From Dehalococcoidia bacterium (GTDB lineage Bacteria; Chloroflexota; Dehalococcoidia; Lucifugimonadales; CBDFII01): a stretch of 64,000 bases of DNA. A program made the translations under genes and the position numbers. The DNA is taken from NCBI GenBank assembly GCA_965248115.1, contig CBDFII010000004.1:465999-529998 (forward strand), read 5' to 3'. The notes beneath the pieces are model-generated. The model was not told the DNA's origin. It did no database searches and saw nothing but the letters and a program-made list of their open reading frames with translations. Of the stretch, positions 859-52,413 are shown piece by piece. Every line of letters starts with the position of its first letter. Within the stretch, counting starts at the first letter, position 1.

Positions 859-1980
859 ATGGCCCTTATAACAATAGCTCGCGGCCGTGTTTACAACTTT
901 AGCCACGTAGTTGGGGCTAGGGCTTCTGGTCAAACTCCGGATGGAATGGGTGCACCAGGGTTAAATAGGCCTAACGCCATTGCGGTTGGTAAGGATGGCG
1001 TAGTGTACGTGTTGAACCGCCAGGACGGCTCAAGAGATAATCCGCGGGTGGCTAAAATAAAGATAGGAGGGCCATCCGAGGAGCGGTATCTCCTTACCAT
1101 CGGACGTGGGGGCTCTGAGGACGGTCAATTCATGTGGCCCGCTGGGGTGGCCCTGGACAAGGATGAGAACCTCTACGTTTCCGACGACTACCTTCACCAT
1201 GTCTCCATATTCGACAAAGAGGGAAAGTTTCTAGGCAAGTGGGGTACCCCAGGCAATGACCCTGGAGAGCTCAATGGCCCCAATGACCTTGCCTTTGATG
1301 GAGAGAACAACGTCTATGTGGTGGACGCCTTTAACCACCGGGTGCAGAAGTTCACCAAAGACGGCGTCTTTCTTGGTGGGTGGGGTCACTACGGCAGTGG
1401 AGAGGGCGAATTCAACATGCCGTGGGGGATCGATATAGATGACAAGGGTGCTGTGTACGTGGCTGACTGGAAGAACCACCGGGTACAAAAATTCAGCCAC
1501 GATGGGACCTTTCTCATGCAGATTGGCCGTCCCGCACCTGGTGCTGGTGAACTCCAGTATCCCTCATCCTTTCCGAGGCATATAGCCTTTTCGCATCTCT
1601 ACCGAATGGAAGGGGCCAACACCGGTGAGCTCAACCATCCATCTCATGTAGCAGTGGATAAGGATGGCGATGTTTACGTCTCGGACTGGGCTAACGACCG
1701 GGTTCAGATATATACGCCGGAGGGTGAGTTCTTCGCTTCCCTTTATGGAGACGCACAGGAAATTGGCAAGTGGGCTCAGGATCACGTGGGTGCGAACCCC
1801 GACGTCGCCAAAGCGATCCGCCGAGCCAAGAACATTGAGCAGATGTGGGAGTTCAAGATGCCTGAAGGTATAGGCATCGACCACGAGACGAACCGGATAA
1901 TTATCGCTGATTGCTTTAGGCGTCGCCTTCAGATTTATGTTAAAGAAAAGGATTATATAGACCCCCAGTTCAACCTGTAA
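859..1980 (+). CDS. NHL-repeat beta-propeller protein
   Basis: 373-aa ORF with repeated units of the NHL type (G.G.GQF..P.GVA.D..GN.YV.D..NHRVQKF). No signal peptide. Paralog of 46622(-) and 51394(+), sharing the N-terminal motif GRVYNFSH.VG and the C-terminal RLQIY.K.KDY.DPQFNL. Confidence 0.8.
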   Translation: MALITIARGRVYNFSHVVGARASGQTPDGMGAPGLNRPNAIAVGKDGVVYVLNRQDGSRDNPRVAKIKIGGPSEERYLLTIGRGGSEDGQFMWPAGVALDKDENLYVSDDYLHHVSIFDKEGKFLGKWGTPGNDPGELNGPNDLAFDGENNVYVVDAFNHRVQKFTKDGVFLGGWGHYGSGEGEFNMPWGIDIDDKGAVYVADWKNHRVQKFSHDGTFLMQIGRPAPGAGELQYPSSFPRHIAFSHLYRMEGANTGELNHPSHVAVDKDGDVYVSDWANDRVQIYTPEGEFFASLYGDAQEIGKWAQDHVGANPDVAKAIRRAKNIEQMWEFKMPEGIGIDHETNRIIIADCFRRRLQIYVKEKDYIDPQFNL

Positions 1981-16738: not shown

Positions 16739-17425
16739 ATGTCCCAATACCATCGATTAGGCCAAAATAGTAGGAGACGAGGGCTGTTAGCTACGGCATC
16801 AAGGCTTGTAGTATTCGGCCCACTTATGGTGATCCTTGCGGTGGCTTGCACCGGCTCCGAGAGCATCACTATCCCTTCCCAGCCCACAATACAAGAGGAA
16901 TCCACAGAGAAGAGCTTCCCAACACCCTCACCCCCATTGGACACCACAACAGCTACCCAGCATTCCGTGGGGACAAGGGTAGCTGACCTTGCACCCCCCT
17001 TCACCTTCACCCTTTCCAACGGCACGCTGGTGAGCCGGGATTCTATCAAGTCTGATGGAAACCCGGTGATGCTCTTCTTCTATACCCCTTGGTGACCCAC
17101 CTGTCGCGCCGAGTTACGGTCGCTTAAAACCATCTACCCCCAGTACCAAGCCCATGTGGACTTTTATGCCATATGTGTGGACCCAACGATGAGCCAGGCC
17201 GAACTGGAGGAAGATAAGGCACGTCAAGGCTACCCCTGGCCGGTGGTTGAGGCTCCGCGACAGTTGATCACTGACCTGCGGGTCACCGTACGATCCACTA
17301 AGGTGGCAATAGGGAGAGATGGAGTTATCACCTTCAGGACGGGGTACGGCGTCGGACCCAGAGAGGGTTGGGATCAACTCTTCCAAAGGCTTATAAAGGG
17401 GTCTGGCGACGGCTCAGGATACTAG
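16739..17425 (+). CDS. TlpA/ResA-like thiol:disulfide oxidoreductase lipoprotein with in-frame UGA (candidate selenoprotein, W-U-P-T-C)
   Basis: Track ORFs 16739..17095 and 17156..17425 share a frame; only TGA (17093..17095) and 20 sense codons lie between them. The read-through gives ...NPVMLFFYTPW-U-PTCRAELRSLK..., the thioredoxin-fold WCxxC site. Lipobox LAVAC at the N-terminus. Confidence 0.7.
17106..17123 (+). promoter_or_regulatory. Candidate bacterial SECIS hairpin
   Basis: GCGCCG / CGG(U)CGC: 6 G-C-rich base pairs with a bulged U and an AGUUA apical loop, starting 10 nt after the UGA. Confidence 0.45.
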
Positions 17426-18193
17426 CTCACCCCTCAACGATTGTAACCATTCAGAAAGCCATCTCTCCAGAACGTCTAACAGTTCAACTCCTACATTCAC
17501 GATAACGATCATTTGAATCACGCTGGCTAGACCGTGAAAGAGCACATACTTACGGAATGAGTATCGGGTAACCCCCGCGATGATGCTGCTCACATCTCCG
17601 GGAAGAAAAGGTATGAGGGCAAAGAGGAAAATAATAAGACCGCCGAAACGCCCCATAAGCCTCTGAAGGGCCGCCCCCCAGCGCCAACGCTCCACGTTGG
17701 AGCTGTTCATTGCGCCTGCCAGGTAGGCCGTTACACTGCCCACTGTTCCGCCTAACCCTGCAGCTACGCCTATTAGAGTAGCATTGAAGTCCTGCGCAAT
17801 CACTGCCACTAGAAGGCCCCCAGGGGCAGGAAATAGGATGGTAGCGCTGCTGGCTCCATTGACGATGAAGGCCCCAAGGTAACCCCAGTTACCCAAGTCC
17901 GTCAGATAGGGACGAAGAAGGTACATGGCCACCACCGTGGCCACAGAGTAGGCCACGATGATCTGGATCTTATATCGCCAGTCAATTCGATCGATGCGAA
18001 CCGCTAGACGGCGAAGAAGTCCCAGACGTGGAGGTTTTCGAGCATCTCGGCCGCGTTGCCTAGGGGCTCCTCTACTGGCAACTCGGCCGGCGCCTCGGTC
18101 TCGGTGACCAATTCGAGGTGACTCTCTACCTGGGGATCCTCTTCTACCCTGTTCGCTACCAGTTCGGCGGGACTTTCCTCGGCTGGTGGACAT
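17414..18193 (-). CDS. YqaA/DedA-related (VTT domain) membrane protein with Arg-rich N-terminal extension
   Basis: The hydrophobic core has the YLGAF.V....SAT..FP.PG and LIPFLPGD....AG motifs typical of SNARE-associated/VTT-domain proteins. The first ~60 aa are R/G-rich, so the start is uncertain. Confidence 0.6.
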   Translation of the reverse strand: MSTSRGKSRRTGSEQGRRGSPGRESPRIGHRDRGAGRVASRGAPRQRGRDARKPPRLGLLRRLAVRIDRIDWRYKIQIIVAYSVATVVAMYLLRPYLTDLGNWGYLGAFIVNGASSATILFPAPGGLLVAVIAQDFNATLIGVAAGLGGTVGSVTAYLAGAMNSSNVERWRWGAALQRLMGRFGGLIIFLFALIPFLPGDVSSIIAGVTRYSFRKYVLFHGLASVIQMIVIVNVGVELLDVLERWLSEWLQSLRGELVS

Positions 18194-18556: not shown

Positions 18557-20632
18557 ATGGCATTTAGACTGTTAGTAACAATGATAGCGGTCCTCTTGGT
18601 AGCCTTGGCTTGCGCGGCTCCTCAGCCCACCCCAACCGCTACACCTACTCCAACCTCCCCACCCACCGCCACACCGACGGCGACACCCACTGGCGCACTT
18701 ACTTCAGTACCGCCAACACCCACCCCCACTCCAACACCGACTCCCACTGGCGCACTTACTCCAGTATCGCCAACACCCACCCCCACACCGACAGCGACAG
18801 CCACAGGCGCACTTACTCCAGTACTGCCAACACCCACCCCCACAGCTACACTAGTGTCGTTACCATCTCCGACTCCCACAGCCACACTAGTGTCGTTACC
18901 AACACCAACAGCTACACCAGTGATAACTGATCCAACCACATGGCGAACTGTTGAAGTGGAAGGCGCCTCGCTGGGTGTTCCCAGCTCCCTTAAGTCAACG
19001 GTCGACCAAATAGTGGCCCTTATTCCTAAAGGGCGTCCCGTAGTGCCCAATATAATTCTAAATCAAGAGGGAATAACAATCCTGTTCGCAGACCAATTGT
19101 TGGGAGCCGGAACAGTTACAGTAACAGGTAATGCAATAGGCAACGCTAATTTAGCCGACAAGCTAGTGCAGTTGGTGATAGCTGAGCAGCCACGTGAATT
19201 GGTCACTAGTGGAAGACAAGAATCAGTGGAATCAGTAGTGGGTAACCTTCAGGCTCTAGAGTTTGAGCTAGTCAAAGTAAGCTCAAATCTGAGATTGGTA
19301 TCCACAGTATTGGATGAGGGTGGAATAGTCCAGCACGTAACAGCCGGGGTCTTGCTAGCTGATGAGTCTGGGACAGCCCTGTACAGAGAAGTGCGGGATA
19401 ATGCCCGCAAACTGGCTGAAACGCCGACTGGTGACACAGTGGACTTGCTGATTTCGGCCGGAAACCAGCCTCGTTTATACCTCTTTGACCTTGCTCCAGA
19501 CCGTTTTTGGGTTGATTCCCTGGCTACAGTGGACGCTATAGTCCTCCCATCAAACATAGCTCGACGATTTTTAGAGTTGGTGGACTCATTCTTAGACGAA
19601 CCGTTTGTCGAAGATTTAGTGGTTTCGGATACGAGACCCCCCGATGTCCCTGTGCTATATATCGTAGATGTTAACTTCCCTTTAGCACGAGAGATCACGG
19701 ACATATCGATAATTTCCCCAGAGGACCGCATTGTAACATTCGAAGGTAACATCTTGGGCACCACCTTTAGTGTTCAGGAGAATGTTCGGACTGCTTCTGG
19801 AGGCCAAACCAACCTACCTGTTGATGTTACCTTAGAGGCCTCGGTAGCGTGGATATCTACGCCCTCTACAGTAAATCAGGCGCGTTTCATGGTGGCAGCC
19901 TCCTCCATCCATCAGAACGAGGAAGCTAAGGCACTGGAAGGACGTTTCAGAACTTGGGCCGTTGTAGTTCCTTCCGAGGAACTGGGTTTGCCACCAGGTA
20001 CCCAGGCTTTGGCGGTAGTCAAGCGAGAACGTTTAGGTTCTCTCGACCCAATATCAATCGGGCTGGACATTATAGATCTGGTCATGGAGAGTGTTACAAC
20101 CGTAATAGACCCATCACCTGCATCAACACCACCCACTCCCATTCCTACCTCCACGCCTACACCAACGCCCACTCCTACCTCCACGCCTACACCAACGCCC
20201 ACTCCTACCTCCACGCCTACACCAACGCCCACTCCTACCTCCACGCCTCCCCCGACTCCCACACCTACACCCACCCCCACACCACCTCCCCCACCAAAGG
20301 AAGTCTCCGCCGACATCGTGAACTTCGCTCTCCAAGATATCACCATTAGGGTAGGTACCACAGTTACATGGACCAACCGAGCCGATTTGCCCCACACCAC
20401 TACTTCCAGCCAACCCGGCGCTCAAACGGGATTGTGGGATAGCCCTACCCTTGGAGAGGGAAACTCCTTCCCCTTTACCTTCAATCAAACAGGGACTTTC
20501 AAATACTTTTGCAGATTTCATTCCTCTATGAAGGCGACCGTCACAGTTGTCGAGACACTGGCTGGGAATCCCGCAGTCGCCACACCCACTCCTAACAGTA
20601 GCGAAGAGGACACAGGTCCTTTCGGTTACTAG
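18557..20632 (+). CDS. Secreted Pro/Thr-rich protein with C-terminal cupredoxin (type-1 copper) domain
   Basis: N-terminal signal/lipobox (LLVALAC). Two PT-rich repeat linkers. The C-terminal domain has ligand-like residues PHTTTS ... YFCRFHSSM (His, Cys-x2-His-x2-Met). Confidence 0.75.
18625..18935 (+). repeat. Imperfect tandem repeats encoding a ([12 protein letters not shown]) linker
   Basis: Repeated cccactggcgcacttac(t/c)(t/c)cagta..gccaacacccacccccac and tacactagtgtcgttacca units. Confidence 0.8.
20131..20290 (+). repeat. Tandem 30-bp repeat (about 3.5 perfect copies) encoding ([10 protein letters not shown])n
   Basis: The unit tcctacctccacgcctacaccaacgcccac is repeated head-to-tail from about 20143 to 20248, flanked by degenerate PT-coding sequence. 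Confidence 0.9.
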
Positions 20633-23743: not shown

Positions 23744-25392
23744 GAGCCTGTCTCAGAAGTCTGATCTGGCAATGGGTATGTCGTCAGGTGTAGCTTCGAA
23801 GCGAGATCAATTGGGGGGATACTGATATGCCGCTTCGACCGATGGGCCGAGAGCAGATGTGGATGTTGCCGCCGACGCTTGACGAGTTGTTGCCGTTGGA
23901 TCATCCGGCGCGGTTCGTCGCCGAGTTCGTCGATGCTCTGGGTCGAGATGCCTGGGCGGAGCTTGGCGTGGACATAGACGGGGAGGTCCTGGGAGCGCCA
24001 GCCTACCATCCCCGTGCACTGTTGAGTGTATGGCTGTACGGCTTCATGACCGGTGTGCGCTCCTGCCGGAAGCTGGAGGCGGCCTGCCGCGACCAGATTC
24101 CGTACCTGTGGTTGACCGGGTGGCAGCATCCCGATCACAACACTCTGTGGCGGTTCTACAAAGGGCATCGGCACGCCATGAGGAAGCTGTTCGAGCGCTC
24201 GGTGCGCACGGCAGTGGCCATGGCGTTGGTGGATCTAGCGGTGCAGGCCGTGGACGGGACGAAGGTGGTAGCCAACGCCTCAGTGAACAGGAGCTATGAT
24301 GCTGTGGGACTGAGTGGTCTGTTGGAGCGTCTCGAGAAGGCGATAGCCGACCTTGAGGCACAGAACGAAGGGGGAGAGGATGCTCCTGTTGCCCATCTGC
24401 CAAAAGAGTTAGCCGACAAGGAGGTCTTGAGGGACCGGGTGAGGCAGGCGATGGCCGACCTCGGGAGTCAGAAGCGCCACAAGCGGATCAACCTGACCGA
24501 CCCGGAGGCCCGACTGATGAAGGGCAGGCAGGGGATCGTGGCCGGCTACAACGTCCAGGCTATGGTCTCACCCATGGAGATCGATGGAGAAGCGGCCGGC
24601 ATGGTGGTCACAGCCGTGGACGTGGTTGATGCGGCCAATGACAATGCCCTGCTGGTGCCGATGGTCGAGCAGGCGGAGGAGACGACCGGGACGAGGGTGC
24701 CGATGACATTGGCCGACGCTGGCTACTTCGCCGTGAGCCACCTAGCGGAGTGCGACCGGCGAGGCCAGCAGGTGGTGGTGTCAGAAGCACGGCAGCGGTT
24801 CCTCACAGACGCGTATCACAAGGACCGATTCACCTATGACGAGCAAAGCGACAGTTTTACGTGTCCACAGGGACGGAGGCTCAAGTTCCTTCGCATCCAA
24901 CATACGAATGGAGTTCCGCTGCGTCTGTACCGGGCCTCTGGAGCCGTCTGCCAGGCGTGCCCGGCCTTCGGAGTCTGTACGAGAGCCCGCGAGACCGGCC
25001 GCAGTCTGGCGATAGGGCCCCATGACGGAGTGCTACGCCGCCACCGCGCCTGGAGGACCACGTTAGCCGCCAAAGAGGCGTACCGGCTGAGAAAGCAGCT
25101 GGTCGAGCCGGTCTTCGGAATCATCAAGGAACAACAGAGGGCACGTAGGTTCCTGCTGCGTGGCCTCGCCAACGTGGCGGCCGAGTGGACCATGTTGGCC
25201 ACCGCCTTCAACCTGCGCACCCTCTACCGGGTGTGGAGCTCCTCCCTCCATCTTCAACCCTCTACCTGACGGTCTGGAACCTTGTCATGTCTCGTGAGCT
25301 GAGGCCATTGACAGCTATCCCTCACCCCATCGTCTGCGTAATACTTCGCGTCGGAGTACGCCTGCCAACGGACGTCATTCTGAGACAGGCTC
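23744..25392 (+). mobile_element. IS element copy 1 (IS1182/IS5-like), 1649 bp
   Basis: Bounded by perfect 15-bp inverted repeats GAGCCTGTCTCAGAA (23744..23758 and the complement of 25378..25392). Differs from copy 2 (52451..54099) at only 2 positions that I could find. Confidence 0.8.
23827..25269 (+). CDS. IS1182/IS5-family DDE transposase
   Basis: 480 aa. The N-terminal LPP.LDELLP.DHPARFV and YHP..LL.V.LYG...G..S.R.LE motif is the transposase InsH-like N-terminal domain. A DDE region and a C-terminal Cys-rich segment follow. Confidence 0.85.
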   Translation: MPLRPMGREQMWMLPPTLDELLPLDHPARFVAEFVDALGRDAWAELGVDIDGEVLGAPAYHPRALLSVWLYGFMTGVRSCRKLEAACRDQIPYLWLTGWQHPDHNTLWRFYKGHRHAMRKLFERSVRTAVAMALVDLAVQAVDGTKVVANASVNRSYDAVGLSGLLERLEKAIADLEAQNEGGEDAPVAHLPKELADKEVLRDRVRQAMADLGSQKRHKRINLTDPEARLMKGRQGIVAGYNVQAMVSPMEIDGEAAGMVVTAVDVVDAANDNALLVPMVEQAEETTGTRVPMTLADAGYFAVSHLAECDRRGQQVVVSEARQRFLTDAYHKDRFTYDEQSDSFTCPQGRRLKFLRIQHTNGVPLRLYRASGAVCQACPAFGVCTRARETGRSLAIGPHDGVLRRHRAWRTTLAAKEAYRLRKQLVEPVFGIIKEQQRARRFLLRGLANVAAEWTMLATAFNLRTLYRVWSSSLHLQPST

Positions 25393-32768: not shown

Positions 32769-33007
32769 CGCTCTCCCTCTGATCTATGCCCACCCGGATT
32801 GTCATCTTGACCGATATCGCTTCGATCTTTAGACGTCGATTCTATATCATCTAAGGTATCGGAGAGGTTACCCACCGTCTGCTGCAACTCCCGCACTATC
32901 CGTCCTGCGTTACGAGCTGCATGTATGGTCTGGGCAGGCCCCAGTATTAACAGACCCACCAGCACCACTATCAAAAGTTCCAGGGGCCCTATACCTAAGA
33001 AGTCCAA
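32765..33007 (-). CDS. TatA/TatB-like translocase protein
   Basis: LDFLGIGPLELLIVVLVGLLILGP... is a TatA/B-type N-terminus. A TTG start at 33007 preceded by GGGGAG is preferred over the track start at 33043. It overlaps the tatC start by 4 nt. Confidence 0.65.
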   Translation of the reverse strand: MDFLGIGPLELLIVVLVGLLILGPAQTIHAARNAGRIVRELQQTVGNLSDTLDDIESTSKDRSDIGQDDNPGGHRSEGER

Positions 33008-34914
33008 GTTCTCCCCTCTCTCGCTTGAGCGCACAGGGAGCACTTGGAAGGGTCTTCGATAGAAATCCTATCATTTTGAACTAGGTTATTCTCCTTAAGA
33101 AGCTCCAATAGAGTGCAAAGGGGCAGCCCCATGATGTTGGTATAGCAACCCTCTATCCGAGCCGCGGGGCGCAATACCGAATCTTGGACAGCGTAAGCGC
33201 CTGCTTTGTCCAAAGGCTCGCCGGACGCCACGTAATCCTCCAGCTCTTGAGACGAGAATTCCCGCATAAAGACCGTGCTAGTCCGGCTGGCAGTGACCGA
33301 TCGCCCTGTGGCACTATCTATCGCCGCCACCCCAGTTACCACCCGATGCTCGCTCCCTCGCAGCTTTTGTAGCATTTGCCTGGCTTGCGTCGAGTCCTCA
33401 GGTTTGCCCAGAACCTCACCATCCAACAACACCACCACCGAGTCCGCTCCCACCACAAAGCCTCTGTCAAACCCTTGCGCCACCGATGAGGCCTTAGCTA
33501 GTGCCAGACGTACTACCAGCTCCTCCGGTGTCTCCCCGGGGCGAACCTCTTCTTCCACATGGGGGTCCACCGTTCTAAACGGTAGTCTCAGAAGGGGCAG
33601 AAGTTGCTGGCGGCGAGGCGAGGTCGAAGCCAGCACCAGGGGCAGCTTATCTACACTTTTGGATTCAGGGCCAGCCTCAGGCATCGCAGAAGATTTGGAT
33701 GAATCCAGGTCGACGGAACCGCTAGTCCCCTGATAAGCCAGAGTGGCTACGCACTCCACGAGATGAGTCTGAGGGAACATATCGATAGGTTGCACCTGCT
33801 CCAGAGAAAAGGGGCCATCGCAAAGCAAGCGCAGATCTCGAGCCAGGGTAGCAGGGTCACACGAGACGTACGCTACACGTGTGGGCCCCAGTTGGGCCAG
33901 AGTTTCCAGAGTCTTGGGATGACAGCCCGTTCTGGGAGGGTCCAGGATCACCCCATCTGGCCTTTGAGCCATTCCCGCCAGCACCTCTTCCGTCTTTCCC
34001 TGCAAAAACTCTACGTTACTTATTCCCTCAGCGTTCACCAAGGCGTCTTGCACAGCTGACTTCGACTCCTCTATGGCAATGACCCTCTCAGTATAAGGAG
34101 CCAGCAGGATGGCGAAGGTGCCCACCCCAGCATAGGCATCCACCAGGAGCTCACTTCCCGTTAACCTTAGGGCCTCTTTCACTACCTCCACCATCCTTTC
34201 GGCCTGAGCAGTGTTCACCTGAAAAAAGGAAGAGGAGGAAATGCGAAAGGAGCGACCCGCCAGGGTGTCCCAGTAATGTTTCTGACCTGAAGGAAGGGGG
34301 AAATCGCCACTACGAAAGGTGGGCTGAATAAGAAAGTCATCGGTAGCCTCACCGTGGCGGATGGATGCTTGGGTGGTCTCACCACACTTGCCTTGTAGCT
34401 GCTCCAGGGCACCGTTGATCCAGGGATTCATCAGCATGCACTGACTGATGACCACACGTTGCTGCGTCTCTCGGTTCACGTAACACAGCTCACCATTCGC
34501 CCCCACCGTCAGACGTGCATGGTTTCGATAGTAATATTGCTTAGGTGACAGTATGACTGGTGCTACCGGTGGCCCGGAGAAGCCTCCAATGCGGCAAAGG
34601 GCGTCTACCACTTTCTGGCGCTTTAGCTCCAATTGGTGCTGATAATCTATGTGCTGCCACTGGCACCCGGTGCATGGACCAAAGTAGGGACATGGAGCCT
34701 CAACACGTTGAGAGGAAGGACTAAGCACCTCCACCACTCTAGCCGCTACATACTTGCGGCGGCTTTTAAGCACCTCTGCTATCACCTCTTCACCAGGCAC
34801 TCCTCCAAAGACGAACATTAGCTGGCCATCGTAGGAGGCATGGGCCTCTCCCAGTCTCCCCCAACCATCAAGTAGCAGCCGTACTCGCTCCCCAACCTCT
34901 AATCGTCCATTCAT
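32995..34914 (-). CDS. Fusion protein: RlmD/RumA-type m5U RNA methyltransferase (TRAM + Fe-S + SAM MTase) with C-terminal Maf nucleotide pyrophosphatase
   Basis: Single 639-aa frame. Residues 1-400 carry CPYFGPCTGCQWQH, DAYAGVGTF, DPPRTG and YVSCDPATLARD. Residues ~430-639 carry LVLASTSPRRQQLL, GADSVV and AGAYAVQD, which are Maf hallmarks. No stop codon between the two parts. Confidence 0.8.
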   Translation of the reverse strand: MNGRLEVGERVRLLLDGWGRLGEAHASYDGQLMFVFGGVPGEEVIAEVLKSRRKYVAARVVEVLSPSSQRVEAPCPYFGPCTGCQWQHIDYQHQLELKRQKVVDALCRIGGFSGPPVAPVILSPKQYYYRNHARLTVGANGELCYVNRETQQRVVISQCMLMNPWINGALEQLQGKCGETTQASIRHGEATDDFLIQPTFRSGDFPLPSGQKHYWDTLAGRSFRISSSSFFQVNTAQAERMVEVVKEALRLTGSELLVDAYAGVGTFAILLAPYTERVIAIEESKSAVQDALVNAEGISNVEFLQGKTEEVLAGMAQRPDGVILDPPRTGCHPKTLETLAQLGPTRVAYVSCDPATLARDLRLLCDGPFSLEQVQPIDMFPQTHLVECVATLAYQGTSGSVDLDSSKSSAMPEAGPESKSVDKLPLVLASTSPRRQQLLPLLRLPFRTVDPHVEEEVRPGETPEELVVRLALAKASSVAQGFDRGFVVGADSVVVLLDGEVLGKPEDSTQARQMLQKLRGSEHRVVTGVAAIDSATGRSVTASRTSTVFMREFSSQELEDYVASGEPLDKAGAYAVQDSVLRPAARIEGCYTNIMGLPLCTLLELLKENNLVQNDRISIEDPSKCSLCAQAREGRTWTS

Positions 34915-35507: not shown

Positions 35508-35603
35508 GGGGGTGGATGGGGCCCGGTGGCTCTTGCGGACTTCAAATCCGTCGTGCCTCGTTAACCCGGGGTAGGTGGGTTCGACTCCCTCCCACTCCCG
35601 CCA
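35508..35603 (+). tRNA. selC: tRNA-Sec (anticodon UCA)
   Basis: 96 nt folded by hand. 8-bp acceptor stem (GGGGGUGG/CCACUCCC), 6-bp D stem with 4-nt loop (GGGGCC-CGGU-GGCUCU), anticodon loop CUUCAAA and a long variable arm (GCCUCG-UUAACC-CGGGGU). The 5-bp T arm has a UUCGACU loop, followed by G-CCA. The layout is colinear with the E. coli selC tRNA. Confidence 0.9.
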
Positions 35604-39946: not shown

Positions 39947-42150
39947 TCAGGCAGGCATCACCTCGGGCACTTCCTTGTCCCCAACCTGATCCACTTCAAC
40001 GCGAAAGTCGGGCAGCCATTCGAGCCACGAGGGCAGATACCAGTTCCACTTGCCCAGAAGCTTCATGGCGGCAGGCACCAGAACCATCCGGACGATGGTG
40101 GCGTCGAGGAGTATAGCGATCCCCAGGCCGAAGCCCATCTGCTGCAATCCGATTATGTCGCCAGCGGCAAAGGACCAAAACACAGCGACCATGATGAGGG
40201 CCGCTCCAGTGATGAGGCTCCCTGTGGATCGAATGCCGAAAGCCACCGAACCGGTGTTGTCCTGGGTCTGGTCGAAACGCTCCCGGATACGGCTGAGGAG
40301 AAAGACGTGATAGTCCATGGATAGGCCAAACAGGATGGCAAATTGTGTGAATATGCCCAGATCCTCACCCACGCCTTTCTGAAAGACAAGAACCAGGATT
40401 CCATAGGTCGCTCCCACGGAAAGTAGATTCAGTATAATGGCTTTAAGCGGCACGATAATTGATCGGAAAACGAGCATTAGCAAGAAGAAGCTTATGCCCA
40501 GGACGAAAGGGAATATATAGAACACGGCATTGTTGGCCGTGTCGAAGAAGTCCATGTTATATGCGGTCTCACCTGTGACACTTACTGTCGCAGGAACGCC
40601 TGCAAAGGCGGCAGGGACATACTCGCGGCGGAGTCTGCTGATAGCGGCTTTGGACTCATCCTCAGCGGAATCACCAGCTACCGGCACGGTAAGCAGCGCC
40701 ACAGTCCCGGCCTTGTTCACCTCCAGAGGAGCCGCCAAGGAGAATGCGTTGACTATGTCCGTCGCCATGGCCGCCTTTAGGCTCTCGATAGCCCCTTGCA
40801 CAGGCTGAGAGGCAATATCGCCCTCAATGACTATCTGCGCCGGCGTCACATTTCCCGCGGAGAATTTCGCGTCAAGAACATCGAAACCCTGCTTGGACCG
40901 CAGGTCGTCGGGCAGGTGCTGATCCCCTGGAAGCCTGTACTGAGATCGAAGGCGGGATAGGCAGCGGCGATAAGGAGACCTCCGGCCAGCAAAAGGCTAA
41001 TCACAGGCCGTCGCATGACTCCATGAGGAATCCTGTCCCAGAAGCCACCGGCGCTCTGCTCGTCGAATCTGGTCTGTGCCCTACCGATCCAAGGGATAGA
41101 CAGCCGATTGACCCCATCCCCCATGAGACTGAGTACAGCAGGCAGAAGGGTCATGGCGGCCGTTACTGAGGTGATCACCACCACAATAGCGCCGATGCCA
41201 AGACCGATAAAGACGTTGAAGGGTACCAACAACATGCCAATGAGGCCCAGAACCACGGCCATGCCACTGAAGAGGACGGCCCGGGTGGCCGTCCCCCCAG
41301 CCCGCCCGATCGCATCGATCTTCTCCAGGCCCCGGGCCCGCTCCTCCCGGTAACGGGCAACGATAAAGAGGGAGTAGTCGATGCCGACGGCGAGGCCGAT
41401 CATGAACATGATGTTTTGGACGAAAAAGGACAGCGCGAAGGCCTGTCCGACTATGGAGACAATCCCCATTGCAACGATGATGGAGACGACAGCCAGCACA
41501 ATGGGCACCAGCGCTGCCACCAGGGCCCCGAACACCACCACGAGAATGATGAGGGCAGCGGGCACTCCAAAGATCTCTCCCTTCTCGAGTCCCTCCTGAG
41601 CCACCTCCTGAAAGTCCTCACCAACAGTGGCCTGGCCGAATATCAGAACCTCGAAATCGCCCTGCTTATTGGCGTCCACTACCTCGAGGGCCTTGTGGAT
41701 GTTGTCTGTAGCGTCGTCGAAGTCTCCGGCCATAATGAGGGGCATAATGGTGGTGAGGCGGTCCTCTGAGACCAAGAAGGGGGCTCCTGTCTGATAATAA
41801 TTGATAAACGTTCCTTCTCTGATAATCTCGGGCCCCAACGCCGCAACTTTCCCATAGAAAGCCTCAACGAACTCTTGAAAAGCAGGGTCGTCAACGGTGA
41901 GGGTATCCGACTGGACGATGAGCACCTCGTTGGTGCTGAAGGGGAGGCCGCGCAACTCTACTATCAGGTCCACCCCACGCTGGGACTCGGGGGTGTTGGT
42001 GAAGACGAACTAGGTAGTGACAGCATCGTCAAAGAGGCTGGCAACGAGGCCGACAGCCACAACCACAATCAACACCCATATGCTGATGGTGGTCCATGGC
42101 CGTGTCGCGCATCGGCGAGTCAATGATTCAGAAGAGATCCCTAGCGCCAT
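39947..42150 (-). pseudogene. MMPL/RND-superfamily transporter, disrupted (in-frame TAG plus frameshift)
   Basis: An ATG at 42150 with an AGGAGGAGG RBS opens MALGISSESL...DDAVTT-TAG(42010..42012)-FVFTNTPESQRGVDLIVELRG, continuing into track ORF 40846..41973. Near 40915 the frame shifts (GIST | LPDDLRSKQGFDVLDAKFSAGNVTPAQIVIEGD) into ORF 39947..40849. Confidence 0.7.
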
Positions 42151-46621: not shown

Positions 46622-47605
46622 TTAGGAGCGTTTCTGGTACACCTGGAGGCGATCGCGATTACAGTCAATCACGACGATACGCCCCTCATCATCAACCTCA
46701 ACGGCATTGGGGTGCCAGAAGCTCTTCCAGGATGTCAAGTCCGGCACCAGGTCCATCTGTTTTGCCATGTCGGGGTTAGCGCTTAGTTGCGCTTGACCCC
46801 ATTTGGAGAGCACCCCATTCCCAGTGAAAATCGTAATGAACATGCCCTCAGGGGTGAACGCCTGTACCCTGTGATTAAGCCAGTCGGTGACATAGAAGTC
46901 TCCGTCTTTATCTACAGCCACATCTGTAGGACGGTTAAACTGGCCCATCTCCTTACCCGATGTGCCAAAGCTGGCCGTGAAAGTGCCGTCAGCTGTGAAC
47001 TTCTGAATACGGTCGTTACGCCAGTCGGCGACCCACACGTCGCCTTTCTTGTCTATGGTGAGGCCCCAAGGGAGGTTGAACTCTCCATCAGCGTTGCCTT
47101 GCCTACCCCACTTGGCCAGGAACTTCCCCTCTTTGTTGAACACCTCTATCCTGTTGTTGGCACTGTCCACCAGGTAGAGGTTGTCCTCCTTATCGAAGCA
47201 GAGACCTGTGGGCTTGTTTATCTCTCCATCGGCACTACCCTTTGAGCCCCAGTGGTCGAGAAAATTTCCCTGACCGTCGAAAATCGAGATACGGTTCAGG
47301 TAGTCGTCGCTAACATAGGCGTTCCCCTTGCTGTCCAGGGCAATGGAAGAGGGCCAGATGAATTGCCCTCTGCCGTCACCGTATCGGCCAAACTCGCTTA
47401 TATATTCCTCGTCCAAGGTGCAAATAGTCACCCGTACTCCCGTAGTTTCATACTCTGCCGAATGGTTAAGGACGTATATCTTCCCTCCCTCACCCAGGGC
47501 CAAGTCCACAGGATCTCTGAACCCTTGTCCCGATGCCCCGTTCCGCCCAATGGTGTGGCTGTACTTATATAGTCTCGTAGTTACACCAAAGAATACGCTA
47601 GCCAT
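46622..47605 (-). CDS. NHL-repeat beta-propeller protein
   Basis: 327 aa with six NHL-like blades (GQF..P..IA.D..GN.YV.D..N.RI..F). No signal peptide. Lies directly downstream of a DUF1800 gene. Confidence 0.8.
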   Translation of the reverse strand: MASVFFGVTTRLYKYSHTIGRNGASGQGFRDPVDLALGEGGKIYVLNHSAEYETTGVRVTICTLDEEYISEFGRYGDGRGQFIWPSSIALDSKGNAYVSDDYLNRISIFDGQGNFLDHWGSKGSADGEINKPTGLCFDKEDNLYLVDSANNRIEVFNKEGKFLAKWGRQGNADGEFNLPWGLTIDKKGDVWVADWRNDRIQKFTADGTFTASFGTSGKEMGQFNRPTDVAVDKDGDFYVTDWLNHRVQAFTPEGMFITIFTGNGVLSKWGQAQLSANPDMAKQMDLVPDLTSWKSFWHPNAVEVDDEGRIVVIDCNRDRLQVYQKRS

Positions 47606-51393: not shown

Positions 51394-52413
51394 ATGCTTA
51401 CAACTATAGCGGCAGGACGAGTATACAATTTTAGTCATGCAGTGGGTCGCAACCAGCAGACGGGCACGGGGTTTCATTGGCCAACAGCGCTAGCTCTAGG
51501 CCCGGACGGGGTAGTATACGTAGTCAGCCGGGGTAATGAAACCAACTTCGGTACACGAGTGAGCAAGCTCACCTTGTGGCCTCCTGGCGAGGAAGAATTA
51601 ATATGTGAGTTCGGTACTTATGGTGAGATGGATGGGCAGTTGATTTGGCCTACCTCTTTGACCCTGGACATGGAAGGAAACCTCTACGTCTCTGACGAGT
51701 GGCTTAACCGAATTTCCATCTTTGATCAGGATGGCACTTTCCTGGAGAAATGGGGCACATCGGGAACTAGCATCGGAGGGTTAAATGGTCCCTCTGGCTT
51801 AGCTTTGGATAAGGAAGAAAACCTATACGTTGTCGACAGTTTTAGCAATCGTGTCCAAAAGTTCACCAAAGACGGCACCTTTTTGGCTAAGTTCGGCGAA
51901 GAGGGGAGCGGTGAAGGACAGTTCGACATGCCGTGGGGCATTACCATCGACAACAAGGGCGATGTGTACGTGGGCGATTGGAAAAATCACCGAGTGCAAA
52001 AGTTCTCCTCCGAGGGCACCTTCCTGACGAGCTTCGGCACATTCGGGACAGGAGTAGGAGAGCTTAACCACCCAACCGATGTGGCCGTTGACGATGAGGG
52101 GGATGTATACGTGTGCGACTGGGATAACGACCGTGTCCAGATATTTGCGCCCGATGGAGATGTCATCACATCCCTCATTGGAGATGCTCAGCAGCTCTCC
52201 AAGTGGGGCAAGGAAAAACTGGATGTGAATCCAGACATAGTTATGGCTCGACGGAGGCTCAAGAGCCTTGAACCTGAATGGCGGTTCTGCCATCCTTCGG
52301 GAGTGGCCTTTGACCAGACTGAGAACCGCATCGTAGTGGTTGACTGTCAACGGAGCCGCCTCCAGATATACATCAAGGATAAGGACTACGTGGACCCCCA
52401 GTTCAACTTGTAG
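51394..52413 (+). CDS. NHL-repeat beta-propeller protein
   Basis: 339 aa. Starts 18 nt after the DUF1800 stop. Closely resembles 859..1980 (N-terminal GRVYNFSHAVGR, C-terminal RLQIYIKDKDYVDPQFNL). Confidence 0.8.
   Translation: MLTTIAAGRVYNFSHAVGRNQQTGTGFHWPTALALGPDGVVYVVSRGNETNFGTRVSKLTLWPPGEEELICEFGTYGEMDGQLIWPTSLTLDMEGNLYVSDEWLNRISIFDQDGTFLEKWGTSGTSIGGLNGPSGLALDKEENLYVVDSFSNRVQKFTKDGTFLAKFGEEGSGEGQFDMPWGITIDNKGDVYVGDWKNHRVQKFSSEGTFLTSFGTFGTGVGELNHPTDVAVDDEGDVYVCDWDNDRVQIFAPDGDVITSLIGDAQQLSKWGKEKLDVNPDIVMARRRLKSLEPEWRFCHPSGVAFDQTENRIVVVDCQRSRLQIYIKDKDYVDPQFNL

What the first reader, a model, noticed from the sequence alone, without database searches (positions are those of the whole stretch)
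16739..17425. Exported TlpA-like thiol:disulfide oxidoreductase with UGA in place of the first active-site Cys (W-U-P-T-C): candidate lipoprotein selenoprotein
The ORF track stops at TGA 17093..17095, but the same frame continues without another stop into ORF 17156..17425. Read through, the junction is ...GNPVMLFFYTPW-[UGA]-PTCRAELRSL..., which is the thioredoxin-fold WCxxC motif with the nucleophilic Cys codon replaced by UGA. A GC-rich hairpin with a bulged U and an AGUUA loop (17106..17123) starts 10 nt after the UGA, where bacterial SECIS elements sit. A tRNA-Sec gene lies in the same window. The N-terminus has a lipobox (LAVAC), so this would be an extracytoplasmic selenoprotein, which is uncommon.
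Basis: partly seen in the sequence, partly recalled or inferred. Interest (0 to 1): 0.78.

Follow-up and report, generated by a model that had tools for sequence, protein, structure and literature searches.

The report
Selenocysteine TlpA-like lipoprotein, Chloroflexota family
This is very probably a real selenoprotein gene: a membrane-anchored, outward-facing thiol-disulfide enzyme whose key cysteine is replaced by selenocysteine, from a large Chloroflexota family that databases routinely mis-annotate as two fragments, but the general type has been known since 2005.

Summary
ATG 16739 to TAG 17426-17428 is one 228-codon gene with an in-frame UGA (17093-17095). That UGA aligns with the first Cys of WCxxC in ResA, CcmG and MPT53-type oxidoreductases. 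Thirty-two other distinct sequences, including 26 hits from Chloroflexota/Dehalococcoidia/SAR202 assemblies among species-representative genomes, have TGA at the same codon with the frame open beyond it. All but two divergent members share the 6-bp hairpin, starting 10 nt after the UGA, with an AGUUR loop; all 33 keep GUU in the loop. The stem shows compensatory changes (17 double-sided cells against 5.1 expected; 0 of 500 shuffles reach this). Two Cys-form relatives have lost the GUU loop. A covariance model built without the window finds only this site in 64 kb (48.9 bits). A tRNA-Sec gene lies at 35508-35603, and UGA is otherwise the commonest stop. Lipoprotein signals occur in 25 of 27 members. 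Not shown: selA, selB and selD in this genome, and actual Se incorporation. UxxC Prx-like/TlpA-like selenoproteins are an established predicted class, so this is a new member of a known kind. One clade peculiarity is that an invariant Ser-Thr-Lys replaces the usual cis-proline. Interest is moderate.

The parts
16739..17428 (+). Complete selenoprotein gene: 228 codons (codon 119 = UGA/Sec) plus the TAG stop at 17426-17428
   Evidence: One open frame except for TGA 17093. Pfam AhpC-TSA 46.7 bits and Redoxin 35.2 bits cover residues 81-182, across the UGA. ATG 16739 is the only usable start: there is no other ATG/GTG/TTG before Met30 (read).
16739..16849 (+). Lipoprotein-type signal peptide (Met1-Ala36) and lipobox Cys37 (TGC 16847-16849). 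The n-region contains SRRRGLL, which resembles a twin-arginine motif.
   Evidence: A lipobox pattern preceded by an uncharged h-region is present in 25 of 27 family members. L046 is cut at the locus end but shows VLAC|GTS, and L059 has a membrane anchor instead. Cleavage and lipidation are inferred, not shown. The RR motif is not conserved in the family.
16850..16966 (+). Pro/Thr/Ser-rich flexible linker (residues 38-76) between the lipid anchor and the catalytic domain
   Evidence: Sequence composition. The equivalent segment of the modelled ortholog has pLDDT below 50. Linkers vary in length across the family, with 49-159 residues between the lipobox Cys and Sec.
16967..17425 (+). Thioredoxin-fold (TlpA/ResA-like) catalytic domain, residues 77-228
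   Evidence: Pfam. PDB sequence hits to 2ls5, 3kcm, MPT53, ResA and DsbE/CcmG. The model of Cys ortholog P0180 has pLDDT about 90 and superposes on ResA at TM 0.85-0.88.
17093..17095 (+). UGA = selenocysteine codon (residue 119), the first position of the W-U-P-T-C redox motif
   Evidence: It aligns with the first Cys of WCxxC in solved homologs and in full-length Cys-form relatives. TGA is at the same codon in 32 other distinct sequences.
17102..17104 (+). Resolving Cys122 (TGT) of the U-x-x-C motif. Glu125 lies three residues later.
   Evidence: The Cys is invariant in all family members. Glu at Cys+3 corresponds to the CRAE of E. coli CcmG (WCPTCRAE) in the alignment.
17106..17123 (+). SECIS hairpin: 5' arm GCGCCG, apical loop AGUUA, 3' arm CGG(U)CGC. 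It starts after a 10-nt spacer from the UGA.
   Evidence: It is in the MFE fold. It is conserved in register in 31 of 33 distinct Sec forms, and the other two form different hairpins that still have GUU in the loop. Covariation: pair 3 is G-C in 20 sequences and U-A in 9 (bulge-aware count; 16 and 9 in the ungapped count); pair 5 is C-G in 27 and U-A in 6; 0 of 500 shuffles reach the observed values. The covariance model hit is 17093-17137, 48.9 bits.
17294..17302 (+). Ser186-Thr187-Lys188, a clade-specific motif at the position of the cis-proline loop of thioredoxin-fold oxidoreductases
   Evidence: S, T and K are at least 90% conserved in alignment A5. The Ser aligns with the cis-Pro position of B. 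anthracis ResA (GPLPTSF) and of E. coli CcmG (residue 144, in the P144A structure 2g0f).
35508..35603 (+). tRNA-Sec gene (anticodon UCA, encoded CCA end), the trans-acting adaptor for UGA decoding, 18.4 kb from the selenoprotein gene
   Evidence: ARAGORN, Rfam RF01852 at 68.5 bits, and the sequence itself.

Best explanation
Positions 16739-17428 encode one 228-residue selenoprotein. It has a lipoprotein signal peptide, a Pro/Thr-rich tether, and a TlpA/ResA-type thioredoxin-fold domain with active site W-U-P-T-C. During translation, the hairpin at 17106-17123 (apical loop AGUUA) is most likely bound by SelB-GTP-Sec-tRNA(Sec). This would deliver selenocysteine to the UGA 10 nt upstream instead of terminating. 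The tRNA is encoded at 35508-35603. The precursor would then be exported and lipid-modified at Cys37, so the domain hangs on the outer face of the cytoplasmic membrane. There it would act as a selenol/thiol reductant, cycling between a selenolate plus thiol and a Sec119-Cys122 selenenylsulfide. It would probably be re-reduced by a CcdA/DsbD-type membrane electron shuttle. Its substrates would be oxidised or immature surface proteins, by analogy with ResA/CcmG (apocytochrome c), TlpA (Sco/CuA) and pneumococcal Etrx1/2 (MsrAB). Shown here: gene continuity, the Sec/Cys pairing, conserved TGA, a covarying SECIS-type hairpin, the tRNA-Sec gene, the fold class and the lipobox pattern. Inferred: SelB binding, actual Se insertion, lipidation, direction of electron flow, and substrate.
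For: The frame is continuous and the domain match spans the UGA. The UGA aligns with the nucleophilic Cys of MPT53 (FWTPWCPFC), 3kcm, ResA and CcmG (WCPTCRAE) and of full-length Cys-form relatives. About 95-aa 'hypothetical proteins' that start just after the motif dominate the database hits. Nine of the ten I looked up returned DNA, and all nine have TGA at that codon with an open upstream half carrying the signal peptide, as do the two Sec-form loci from the metagenome scan. A scan unbiased for the RNA (FFFATW-TGA) gave 66 hits. Twenty-six stay open for 83-120 codons, all from Chloroflexota/Dehalococcoidia/SAR202 MAGs; a 27th, L027, also Dehalococcoidia, is cut off by the end of the locus. 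The remaining 39 terminate within 0-40 codons. For the hairpin, 92.4% of cells are paired against 83.4 +/- 1.4 in shuffles. There are 17 double-sided changes against 5.1 +/- 1.6 (0 of 500). The covariation score is 0.295 against at most 0.112 in slid registers. The third position of the Ala/Ser codon (C or U) tracks Arg CGG or Gln CAG perfectly, 27 and 6 sequences. The loop Leu codon is UUR in 32 of 33 Sec forms (L081 has Phe UUU), although UUR is only 21% of Leu codons in the window. Both Cys forms with DNA use CUG there. A covariance model built without the window gives a single hit, 48.9 bits, E 3e-10. tRNA-Sec is present. SelB lies 6 kb from the closest ortholog. TGA ends 17 of 41 annotated ORFs, so there is no global reassignment. 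The upstream and downstream halves are under similar constraint, with median pN/pS 0.54 and 0.53. The fold matches ResA at TM 0.85-0.88. A lipobox is present in 25 of 27 members.
Against: No selA, selB or selD was found among the ORFs of 150 aa or more scanned in the 64-kb window, and the rest of the genome is not available. The window's own hairpin is short (6 bp with a bulge) and not significant alone (z = -1.4). No Rfam family matches it. Three family members have one mismatched stem pair (L045, L062, L082). No CcdA/DsbD or cytochrome-maturation gene is nearby in the window or in about 10 related loci, and there is no conserved operon partner, so the substrate and the electron donor are pure analogy. 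The usual cis-Pro is replaced by Ser, so the chemistry may differ from ResA/CcmG. Covariation counts are inflated by shared ancestry, because cells count sequences and not independent events.
Confidence: 0.88

Rival explanations
1. It is a pseudogene or an assembly error: a TGC/TGT-to-TGA nonsense change has inactivated an ordinary Cys-type TlpA-like gene.
For: Cys-form relatives exist, some very close to Sec forms (P0180 against L013), so single-base interconversion does happen. The window is a single sequence with no read support available.
Against: TGA is at the identical codon in 32 other distinct sequences from independent assemblies. The part downstream of the TGA is as constrained as the upstream part. 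A covarying hairpin sits in register behind every TGA, and its GUU loop is lost in the Cys forms.
Confidence: 0.02
2. There are two products, not one: translation ends at UGA, giving a 118-residue lipoprotein, and the downstream ORF (GTG 17156) is a separate small protein, as current annotations have it.
For: Gene callers annotate the family this way throughout the databases. Termination at a Sec UGA always competes with insertion (general knowledge).
Against: The split would cut a single thioredoxin fold through its active site. The called starts of the downstream pieces fall at different codons (query positions 2 to 13 and later) and are simply the first available start codon. No conserved start or ribosome-binding site is evident. 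The Cys forms are single polypeptides.
Confidence: 0.03
3. UGA is read through without selenium, either by near-cognate insertion of Trp or Cys or by a general reassignment of UGA in this lineage.
For: selA, selB and selD were not seen for this genome. UGA reassignments exist in other bacterial lineages (general knowledge).
Against: TGA is the most frequent ordinary stop in the window, ending 17 of 41 annotated ORFs. A scan for in-frame TGA found no other convincing case. A dedicated tRNA-Sec is encoded in the window. SelB is encoded next to the closest ortholog. The position is exactly the catalytic Cys, as in known Sec/Cys pairs.
Confidence: 0.05

Closest known systems
[quoted passage not shown]
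   Same: The same Pfam domains (PF00578, PF08534), the same U-x-x-C motif with Sec in the nucleophilic position, abundant Cys homologs, a SECIS hairpin immediately downstream with a G in a small apical loop, and a marine/metagenomic distribution.
   Different: I could not compare directly with the reference accessions (WP_010940744.1, MGB1650493.1), so identity with either published family is unproven. The published tables do not mention a lipoprotein anchor, the Ser-Thr-Lys replacement of cis-Pro, or a Chloroflexota/SAR202 distribution. The review PMC13188914 does not mention Chloroflexota at all, and no paper in the library links SAR202 to this selenoprotein.
ResA (Bacillus) and CcmG/DsbE (E. 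coli), extracytoplasmic reductants of cytochrome c maturation
   Same: They are the best structural matches (TM 0.85-0.88, rmsd about 2 A). They are membrane-tethered and outward-facing. They share the W-C-x-x-C motif followed by Glu three residues after the second Cys. E. coli CcmG reads WCPTCRAE where the window reads W-U-P-T-C-R-A-E.
   Different: Sec replaces the first Cys. Ser replaces the cis-Pro. NCBIfam scores are far below the family cut-offs (30 against 170 for ResA, 22.9 against 359 for DsbE). There is no ccm/res gene context. The anchor is a lipoprotein signal rather than a transmembrane helix.
Streptococcus pneumoniae Etrx1/Etrx2, surface-exposed lipoprotein thioredoxins (PDB 4hqs, 4hqz, 2yp6)
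   Same: A lipoprotein-anchored TlpA-like thioredoxin domain on the outside of the membrane of a bacterium without a conventional periplasm. Structural matches have E about 1e-8 and TM 0.71-0.79.
   Different: Etrx proteins use Cys. Their partners (CcdA, MsrAB2; my own knowledge) are encoded nearby, whereas no partner is linked here.
E. coli fdhF-type bacterial SECIS element
   Same: [quoted passage not shown]
   Different: The stem here is a short 6-bp GC-rich helix. A bulged base is present in only 4 of 33 sequences, and on the 3' side, so it is not the fdhF bulged U. No Rfam model matches.

Membership tests
Bacterial selenoprotein gene (SelB/SECIS-dependent UGA recoding) | In-frame UGA with the reading frame and homology continuing across it | tested here: met
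   the Pfam AhpC-TSA match covers residues 81-182 and the UGA is codon 119.
Bacterial selenoprotein gene (SelB/SECIS-dependent UGA recoding) | UGA aligns with a conserved, catalytic Cys in homologs (Sec/Cys pair) | tested here: met
   it aligns with the first Cys of WCxxC in MPT53, 3kcm, ResA, CcmG and all the full-length relatives retrieved.
Bacterial selenoprotein gene (SelB/SECIS-dependent UGA recoding) | UGA conserved at the same codon in orthologs from independent genomes | tested here: met
   32 other distinct sequences, including 26 (27 with the truncated L027) hits in genome contigs, the collection of species-representative genomes.
Bacterial selenoprotein gene (SelB/SECIS-dependent UGA recoding) | SECIS hairpin immediately downstream of the UGA with a G in a small apical loop, supported by conservation or covariation | tested here: met
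   Caveat: the single-sequence fold is not significant, and no dedicated bacterial SECIS predictor was available.
Bacterial selenoprotein gene (SelB/SECIS-dependent UGA recoding) | tRNA-Sec encoded in the genome | tested here: met
   positions 35508-35603, anticodon UCA, 68.5 bits against RF01852.
Bacterial selenoprotein gene (SelB/SECIS-dependent UGA recoding) | selA, selB and selD present in the same genome | not testable with these tools
   None among the ORFs of 150 aa or more scanned in the 64-kb window, and the rest of the genome is unavailable. SelB is encoded 6 kb from the closest ortholog in L004/L005.
Bacterial selenoprotein gene (SelB/SECIS-dependent UGA recoding) | Selenium actually incorporated at the UGA position | not testable with these tools
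   This needs 75Se labelling or mass spectrometry.
TlpA-like / Redoxin thioredoxin-fold thiol:disulfide oxidoreductases (Pfam PF00578, PF08534; CDD cd02966) | Score above the Pfam gathering threshold | tested here: met
   AhpC-TSA 46.7 bits (cut-off 26) and Redoxin 35.2 bits (cut-off 26.6), with Cys substituted for the UGA.
TlpA-like / Redoxin thioredoxin-fold thiol:disulfide oxidoreductases (Pfam PF00578, PF08534; CDD cd02966) | Thioredoxin fold with the extra elements of the TlpA/ResA class | tested here: met
   The model is of the Cys-form ortholog P0180, not of the window protein itself. Its domain has pLDDT about 90, and the top PDB matches are ResA, CcmG, DsbF, MPT53 and Etrx1/2.
TlpA-like / Redoxin thioredoxin-fold thiol:disulfide oxidoreductases (Pfam PF00578, PF08534; CDD cd02966) | W-C-x-x-C redox motif with both redox-active positions | tested here: met
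   The motif is W-U-P-T-C, with Sec at the first position and Cys122 at the second.
TlpA-like / Redoxin thioredoxin-fold thiol:disulfide oxidoreductases (Pfam PF00578, PF08534; CDD cd02966) | cis-Proline loop facing the active site (typical of thioredoxin-fold disulfide oxidoreductases, not a formal family criterion) | tested here: not met
   an invariant Ser (in S-T-K) aligns with the cis-Pro position of ResA and CcmG. At least one solved TlpA-like protein (2ls5) also lacks a Pro there in the alignment.
TlpA-like / Redoxin thioredoxin-fold thiol:disulfide oxidoreductases (Pfam PF00578, PF08534; CDD cd02966) | Extracytoplasmic location through a signal peptide or membrane anchor | tested here: met
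   a lipobox pattern in 25 of 27 members. This is a pattern-based test only; no SignalP or LipoP was available, and there is no experiment.
ResA / CcmG(DsbE) / StoA equivalogs (cytochrome c maturation, sporulation) | Score above the NCBIfam curated cut-off | tested here: not met
   ResA 30 against 170 bits, StoA 29.6 against 210, DsbE 22.9 against 359.
ResA / CcmG(DsbE) / StoA equivalogs (cytochrome c maturation, sporulation) | Genomic association with ccm/res/ccdA genes | tested here: not met
   No such genes are in the window or in the neighbourhoods of about 10 related loci.
Published Sec families 'Prx-like thiol:disulfide oxidoreductase' and 'Thiol-disulfide isomerase-like protein' | Sequence-level membership with the reference proteins (WP_010940744.1, MGB1650493.1) | not tested
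   The reference sequences could not be fetched with these tools. Only the domain and motif descriptors match.

The most novel reading that the evidence does not exclude
The family may be a distinct clade of lipid-anchored, cell-surface selenoproteins that has not been described as such. It appears confined to Chloroflexota (Dehalococcoidia/SAR202). The Sec form predominates over the Cys form, and an invariant Ser-Thr-Lys replaces the cis-proline loop. If so, its chemistry or substrate could differ from the ResA/CcmG/TlpA reductases, for example a surface peroxidase-like or oxidant-resistant repair activity in oxic water. The several hundred database entries now listed as ~95-aa hypothetical proteins would be halves of it.
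Probability: 0.3. Interest if true: 0.55.

Novelty: new member of a known kind. Interest (0 to 1): 0.4.

Why it matters
It corrects a systematic annotation error. At least 432 database clusters matched the family at E <= 1e-5, and 118 of the 120 listed are ~95-aa 'hypothetical proteins' that start just after the motif. Every one whose DNA I retrieved (9 look-ups, plus 2 Sec-form loci from the metagenome scan) is the C-terminal half of a selenoprotein. It also shows that this Chloroflexota lineage uses the Sec machinery for a surface-exposed redox enzyme. The family provides an unusually clean natural data set for a bacterial SECIS embedded in coding sequence: 33 sequences with compensatory changes, plus Cys-form controls that have lost the loop. 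That set could be used to train or test SECIS predictors and to probe SelB specificity in Chloroflexota. It does not change what is known about selenoprotein biology in general.

Tried and rejected
- The word-indexed protein search with the full Cys-substituted protein found nothing at E <= 1e-3.
- The back-translation scan of genome contigs with the single protein found nothing.
I therefore used the exact C-terminal part.
- The search for related loci rejected the 24-sequence alignment as too diverse. A 4-sequence alignment gave only 3 loci.
- Two look-ups (P0152, P0242) had no contig on record.
- The profile of A5 against the PDB gave nothing, because the profile covered only the C-terminal half.
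- A permissive Rfam scan of 17000-17250 found no family.
- Single-sequence folding z-scores (-0.3 to -2.4) cannot by themselves separate the hairpin from shuffled sequence. Only the comparative analysis does.
- A scan for other in-frame-TGA genes in the window found no second convincing candidate.
- I considered Tat export because of the SRRRGLL motif, but did not adopt it for the family, because RR is absent from most relatives' signals.
- I rejected a ResA/CcmG ortholog assignment.
Full report
**1. The observation**

The sequence is as described. An ORF starts at ATG 16739 and meets TGA at 17093-17095. The same frame continues without a stop to TAG 17426-17428. The junction reads ...GNPVMLFFYTPW-[UGA]-PTCRAELRSL.

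With Cys substituted for the UGA, the 228-residue product matches Pfam AhpC-TSA (46.7 bits, cut-off 26) and Redoxin (35.2 bits). The match covers residues 81-182, straight across codon 119.

A tRNA-Sec gene lies at 35508-35603 (+). It is found by ARAGORN and by Rfam RF01852 (68.5 bits against a gathering score of 47), and it ends in an encoded CCA.

The hairpin GCGCCG-AGUUA-CGG(U)CGC at 17106-17123 starts after a 10-nt spacer and is part of the minimum-free-energy fold. Alone it is not distinguishable from shuffled sequence (z = -1.4).

**2. Sec/Cys pairing**

Against PDB sequences, the UGA aligns with the first Cys of WCxxC. Matches include M. tuberculosis MPT53 (FWTPWCPFC), Geobacter 3kcm, ResA, StoA and DsbE/CcmG. 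E. coli CcmG reads WCPTCRAE where the window reads W-U-P-T-C-R-A-E.

An exhaustive HMMER scan with the exact C-terminal part (17096-17425) gave 192 hits at E <= 1e-3. These fall into two classes:
- Full-length proteins of 170-240 aa with lipoprotein-like N-termini and W-C-P-x-C at the aligned place.
- A larger number of 93-99-aa proteins that begin at query positions 7-13, just after the motif.

**3. The short proteins are halves of selenoprotein genes**

A profile search of the 5.8-billion-protein database returned 432 hits at E <= 1e-5. Of the 120 listed, 118 are about 95-aa 'hypothetical proteins'. Those that carry source names are from Dehalococcoidia, Chloroflexi and SAR202 bins.

I fetched DNA for eleven distinct versions: nine by contig look-up and two from the metagenome scan. 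Every one has TGA at exactly the W-[TGA]-x-x-C position. Upstream, each has an open frame in the same phase encoding a signal peptide, a Pro/Thr/Ala-rich linker and the N-terminal part of the fold.

I then scanned the species-representative genome collection with a pattern taken only from the protein side upstream of the stop (TTYTTYTTYGCNACNTGGTGA, that is FFFATW-UGA). This scan is unbiased with respect to the downstream RNA. It gave 66 matches:
- 26 stay open for 83-120 codons after the TGA and carry x-x-C-R. All are Chloroflexota, Dehalococcoidia or SAR202 MAGs.
- A 27th (L027), also Dehalococcoidia, is cut off by the end of the locus.
- The other 39 meet a stop within 0-40 codons.

Across 34 sequences, median pN/pS is 0.54 for the 45 codons upstream of the UGA and 0.53 for the part downstream. 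Synonymous sites are near saturation, so both halves are under comparable constraint.

**4. The SECIS**

Together the loci give 33 distinct UGA+45-nt sequences. Thirty-one of them have a 6-bp stem at columns 14-19/25-30 (column 1 is the U of UGA) closing a 5-nt loop AGUUR.

Stem variants:
- GCGCCG/CGGCGC is the consensus.
- GCGCUG/CAGCGC has pair 5 changed from C-G to U-A.
- GCUCCG/CGGAGC has pair 3 changed from G-C to U-A.
- GCUCUG/CAGAGC has both changes (L073).
- GCGUCG/CGGCGC and GCUUCG/CGGAGC have G-U wobbles.
- Bulged versions are CGG-U-CGC (window, L006) and CAG-A-CGC (L026, L074).
- Three sequences have one mismatched pair (L045, L062, L082).
- The two most divergent members, L023 and L081, form different hairpins that still place GUU in the loop.

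Formal counts on the ungapped alignment, where the bulged versions count as unpaired:

| Measure | Observed | Control |
|---|---|---|
| Cells paired | 92.4% | 83.4 +/- 1.4 in shuffles (0/500 reach it) |
| Cells changed on both sides | 17 | 5.1 +/- 1.6 (0/500) |
| Covariation score | 0.295 | 0.139 in shuffles; at most 0.112 in any slid register |

These counts are inflated by shared ancestry, but the pattern recurs in different sub-clades.

Some of the constraint is visibly at the RNA level:
- The synonymous third position of the Ala/Ser codon is C whenever the partner codon is Arg CGG (27 sequences). It is U whenever the partner is Gln CAG (6 sequences).
- The A-to-S and R-to-S amino-acid changes co-occur through first-position changes that keep pair 3 intact.
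- Glu is GAG in 32 of 33 Sec forms (L023 has Ala GCG), and Leu is UUA/UUG in 32 of 33 (L081 has Phe UUU). UUR makes up only 21% of Leu codons in this window.

Natural controls agree. The two Cys forms for which I have DNA (L003, and L086, which is very close to the Sec-form L013 group) both use Leu CUG. This destroys the GUU loop, while L086 still keeps the stem. In the Cys-form proteins the segment after the second Cys is also variable (RSELRR, TRELAE, RGELKK, RREMTQ, SSDMQV). In Sec forms it is nearly fixed as RAEL[RQ]R or RSELRS.

A covariance model built from the 32 relatives without the window finds one site in the 64-kb window. That site is 17093-17137, at 48.9 bits and E 3e-10. The next hit scores 14.3 bits and is not a hairpin. 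Rfam has no matching family.

**5. Alternatives**

- UGA is not reassigned. It ends 17 of 41 annotated ORFs in the window, and no other convincing in-frame TGA gene was found.
- A pseudogene or sequencing error is excluded by the conserved TGA and the constrained downstream half.
- Two separate genes would cut one thioredoxin fold through its active site, and the 'starts' of the downstream calls are not conserved.
- Still open: selA, selB and selD could not be examined for this genome. None was found among the ORFs of 150 aa or more that I scanned in the window. The closest ortholog (56% identity, L004/L005) has a SelB gene with the SelB-specific winged-helix domains about 6 kb away.

**6. The protein**

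An AlphaFold model of the Cys-form ortholog P0180 gives a confident domain (pLDDT about 90) behind a disordered signal and linker. Its closest solved structures are ResA (TM 0.85-0.88, rmsd about 2 A), CcmG/DsbE, M. tuberculosis DsbF/MPT53 and the pneumococcal surface lipoprotein thioredoxins Etrx1/Etrx2.

A lipobox-type signal (...[LIV][LAT][AG]|C[GAS]) is present in 25 of 27 family N-termini. One more is cut by a locus end, and one has a membrane anchor instead. The window's signal is MSQYHRLGQNSRRRGLLATASRLVVFGPLMVILAVA|C37. Its RR motif is not conserved in the family.

Glu three residues after the second Cys is conserved, as in CcmG and ResA. The otherwise typical cis-proline is replaced by an invariant Ser in a Ser-Thr-Lys motif (17294-17302). 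This holds in both Sec and Cys forms of the clade.

NCBIfam scores for ResA, StoA and DsbE are far below their cut-offs. No ccm, res or ccdA genes are nearby in the window or in about 10 related loci. The neighbours vary: VTT/DedA, a DsbH-like thioredoxin-domain protein, or a HAD hydrolase with RuvX-AlaS.

The protein therefore belongs to the TlpA-like superfamily but is not a ResA or CcmG ortholog.

**7. Mechanism**

Most likely, SelB-GTP-Sec-tRNA(Sec) binds the loop of the hairpin as the ribosome reaches the UGA 10 nt upstream, and Sec is inserted at position 119.

The precursor would then be exported and lipidated at Cys37. The domain would be tethered by a linker of about 40 residues on the outer face of the membrane. 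There it would act as a reductant, cycling through a Sec119-Cys122 selenenylsulfide, and would be re-reduced by a CcdA/DsbD-type shuttle.

The gene structure, recoding signals, fold and targeting signal are shown here. SelB binding, Se insertion, lipidation, electron donor and substrate are inferred by analogy with ResA/CcmG, TlpA and Etrx.

**8. What is known**

UxxC thioredoxin-fold selenoproteins are established predicted families:
- 'Prx-like 1' (pfam00578, UxxC) is among the most abundant selenoprotein families in ocean metagenomes (PMC2398784).
- DsbA-like and DsbG-like selenoproteins, which are also extracytoplasmic types, are in the same lists.

I found no paper in the held library that links SAR202 or Chloroflexota to this lipoprotein clade. 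I also could not compare with the reference accessions.

**9. Verdict**

This is a real selenoprotein gene and a new member of a known kind, possibly a distinct sub-clade. It is well supported and useful for annotation and SECIS modelling, but not surprising to a specialist.

Noticed in passing
window 18557-20632 (+): A 691-aa lipoprotein-like ORF (LVALAC|AAPQ) with long Pro/Thr repeat linkers and a C-terminal plastocyanin/azurin-type cupredoxin domain (PF00127, E 1.2e-8; FCRFHSSM looks like type-1 Cu ligands). It lies about 1.1 kb downstream of the selenoprotein gene. TlpA-type reductases mature copper centres in other bacteria (my own knowledge), so a functional link is conceivable but untested.
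   Followed up: partly
window 17414-18193 (-): A VTT/DedA-family membrane protein gene is convergent with the selenoprotein gene and overlaps its last 12 nt. The same arrangement occurs in the related loci L016/L017. DedA proteins have been linked to selenite in E. coli (my own memory, not checked).
   Followed up: partly
window 23827-25269 (+) and 52534-53976 (+): Two copies of a 480-aa IS1182-family transposase ORF (NF033551, 356 bits) with identical local sequence contexts. The flanks also repeat: covariance-model noise hits recur at a constant offset of 28707 nt.
   Followed up: partly
window 39947-40849 (-) and 40846-41973 (-): Two adjacent ORFs, overlapping by 4 nt, each match the MMPL family. 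This could be a split or frameshifted RND-type transporter, or a two-gene arrangement.
   Followed up: no
window 32995-34914 (-): A 639-aa ORF fusing a TRAM plus tRNA (uracil-5)-methyltransferase domain to a C-terminal Maf domain lies immediately upstream of the tRNA-Sec gene. The tRNA-Sec is not flanked by selA or selB but by this ORF and a luciferase-like monooxygenase.
   Followed up: no
family-wide; window 17294-17302: An invariant Ser-Thr-Lys sits at the position of the cis-proline loop of thioredoxin-fold oxidoreductases, in both the Sec and the Cys forms of this clade.
   Followed up: partly
L011/L012 (227-2290 and 46-2109, minus strand) and the P0167 locus: In three related loci a 682-687-aa Thioredox_DsbH/Thioredoxin_7 protein is encoded divergently, just upstream of the selenoprotein gene. 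It is a possible redox partner in that sub-clade.
   Followed up: no
L086 (386-982) compared with L013-L015/L022/L038: A Cys form (TGC) differs at only 8 of the 60 nt that start at the Sec/Cys codon from a Sec-form group. It keeps the SECIS stem but not the GUU loop, which suggests a recent Sec/Cys interconversion.
   Followed up: partly
window 859-1980 (+), 51394-52413 (+), 46622-47605 (-): Several NHL/beta-propeller proteins partially match ScyF/ScyE-like models, all below their cut-offs. There are also many LLM/F420-dependent oxidoreductases and MFS transporters. This gene content is consistent with a SAR202-like Chloroflexota genome.
   Followed up: no
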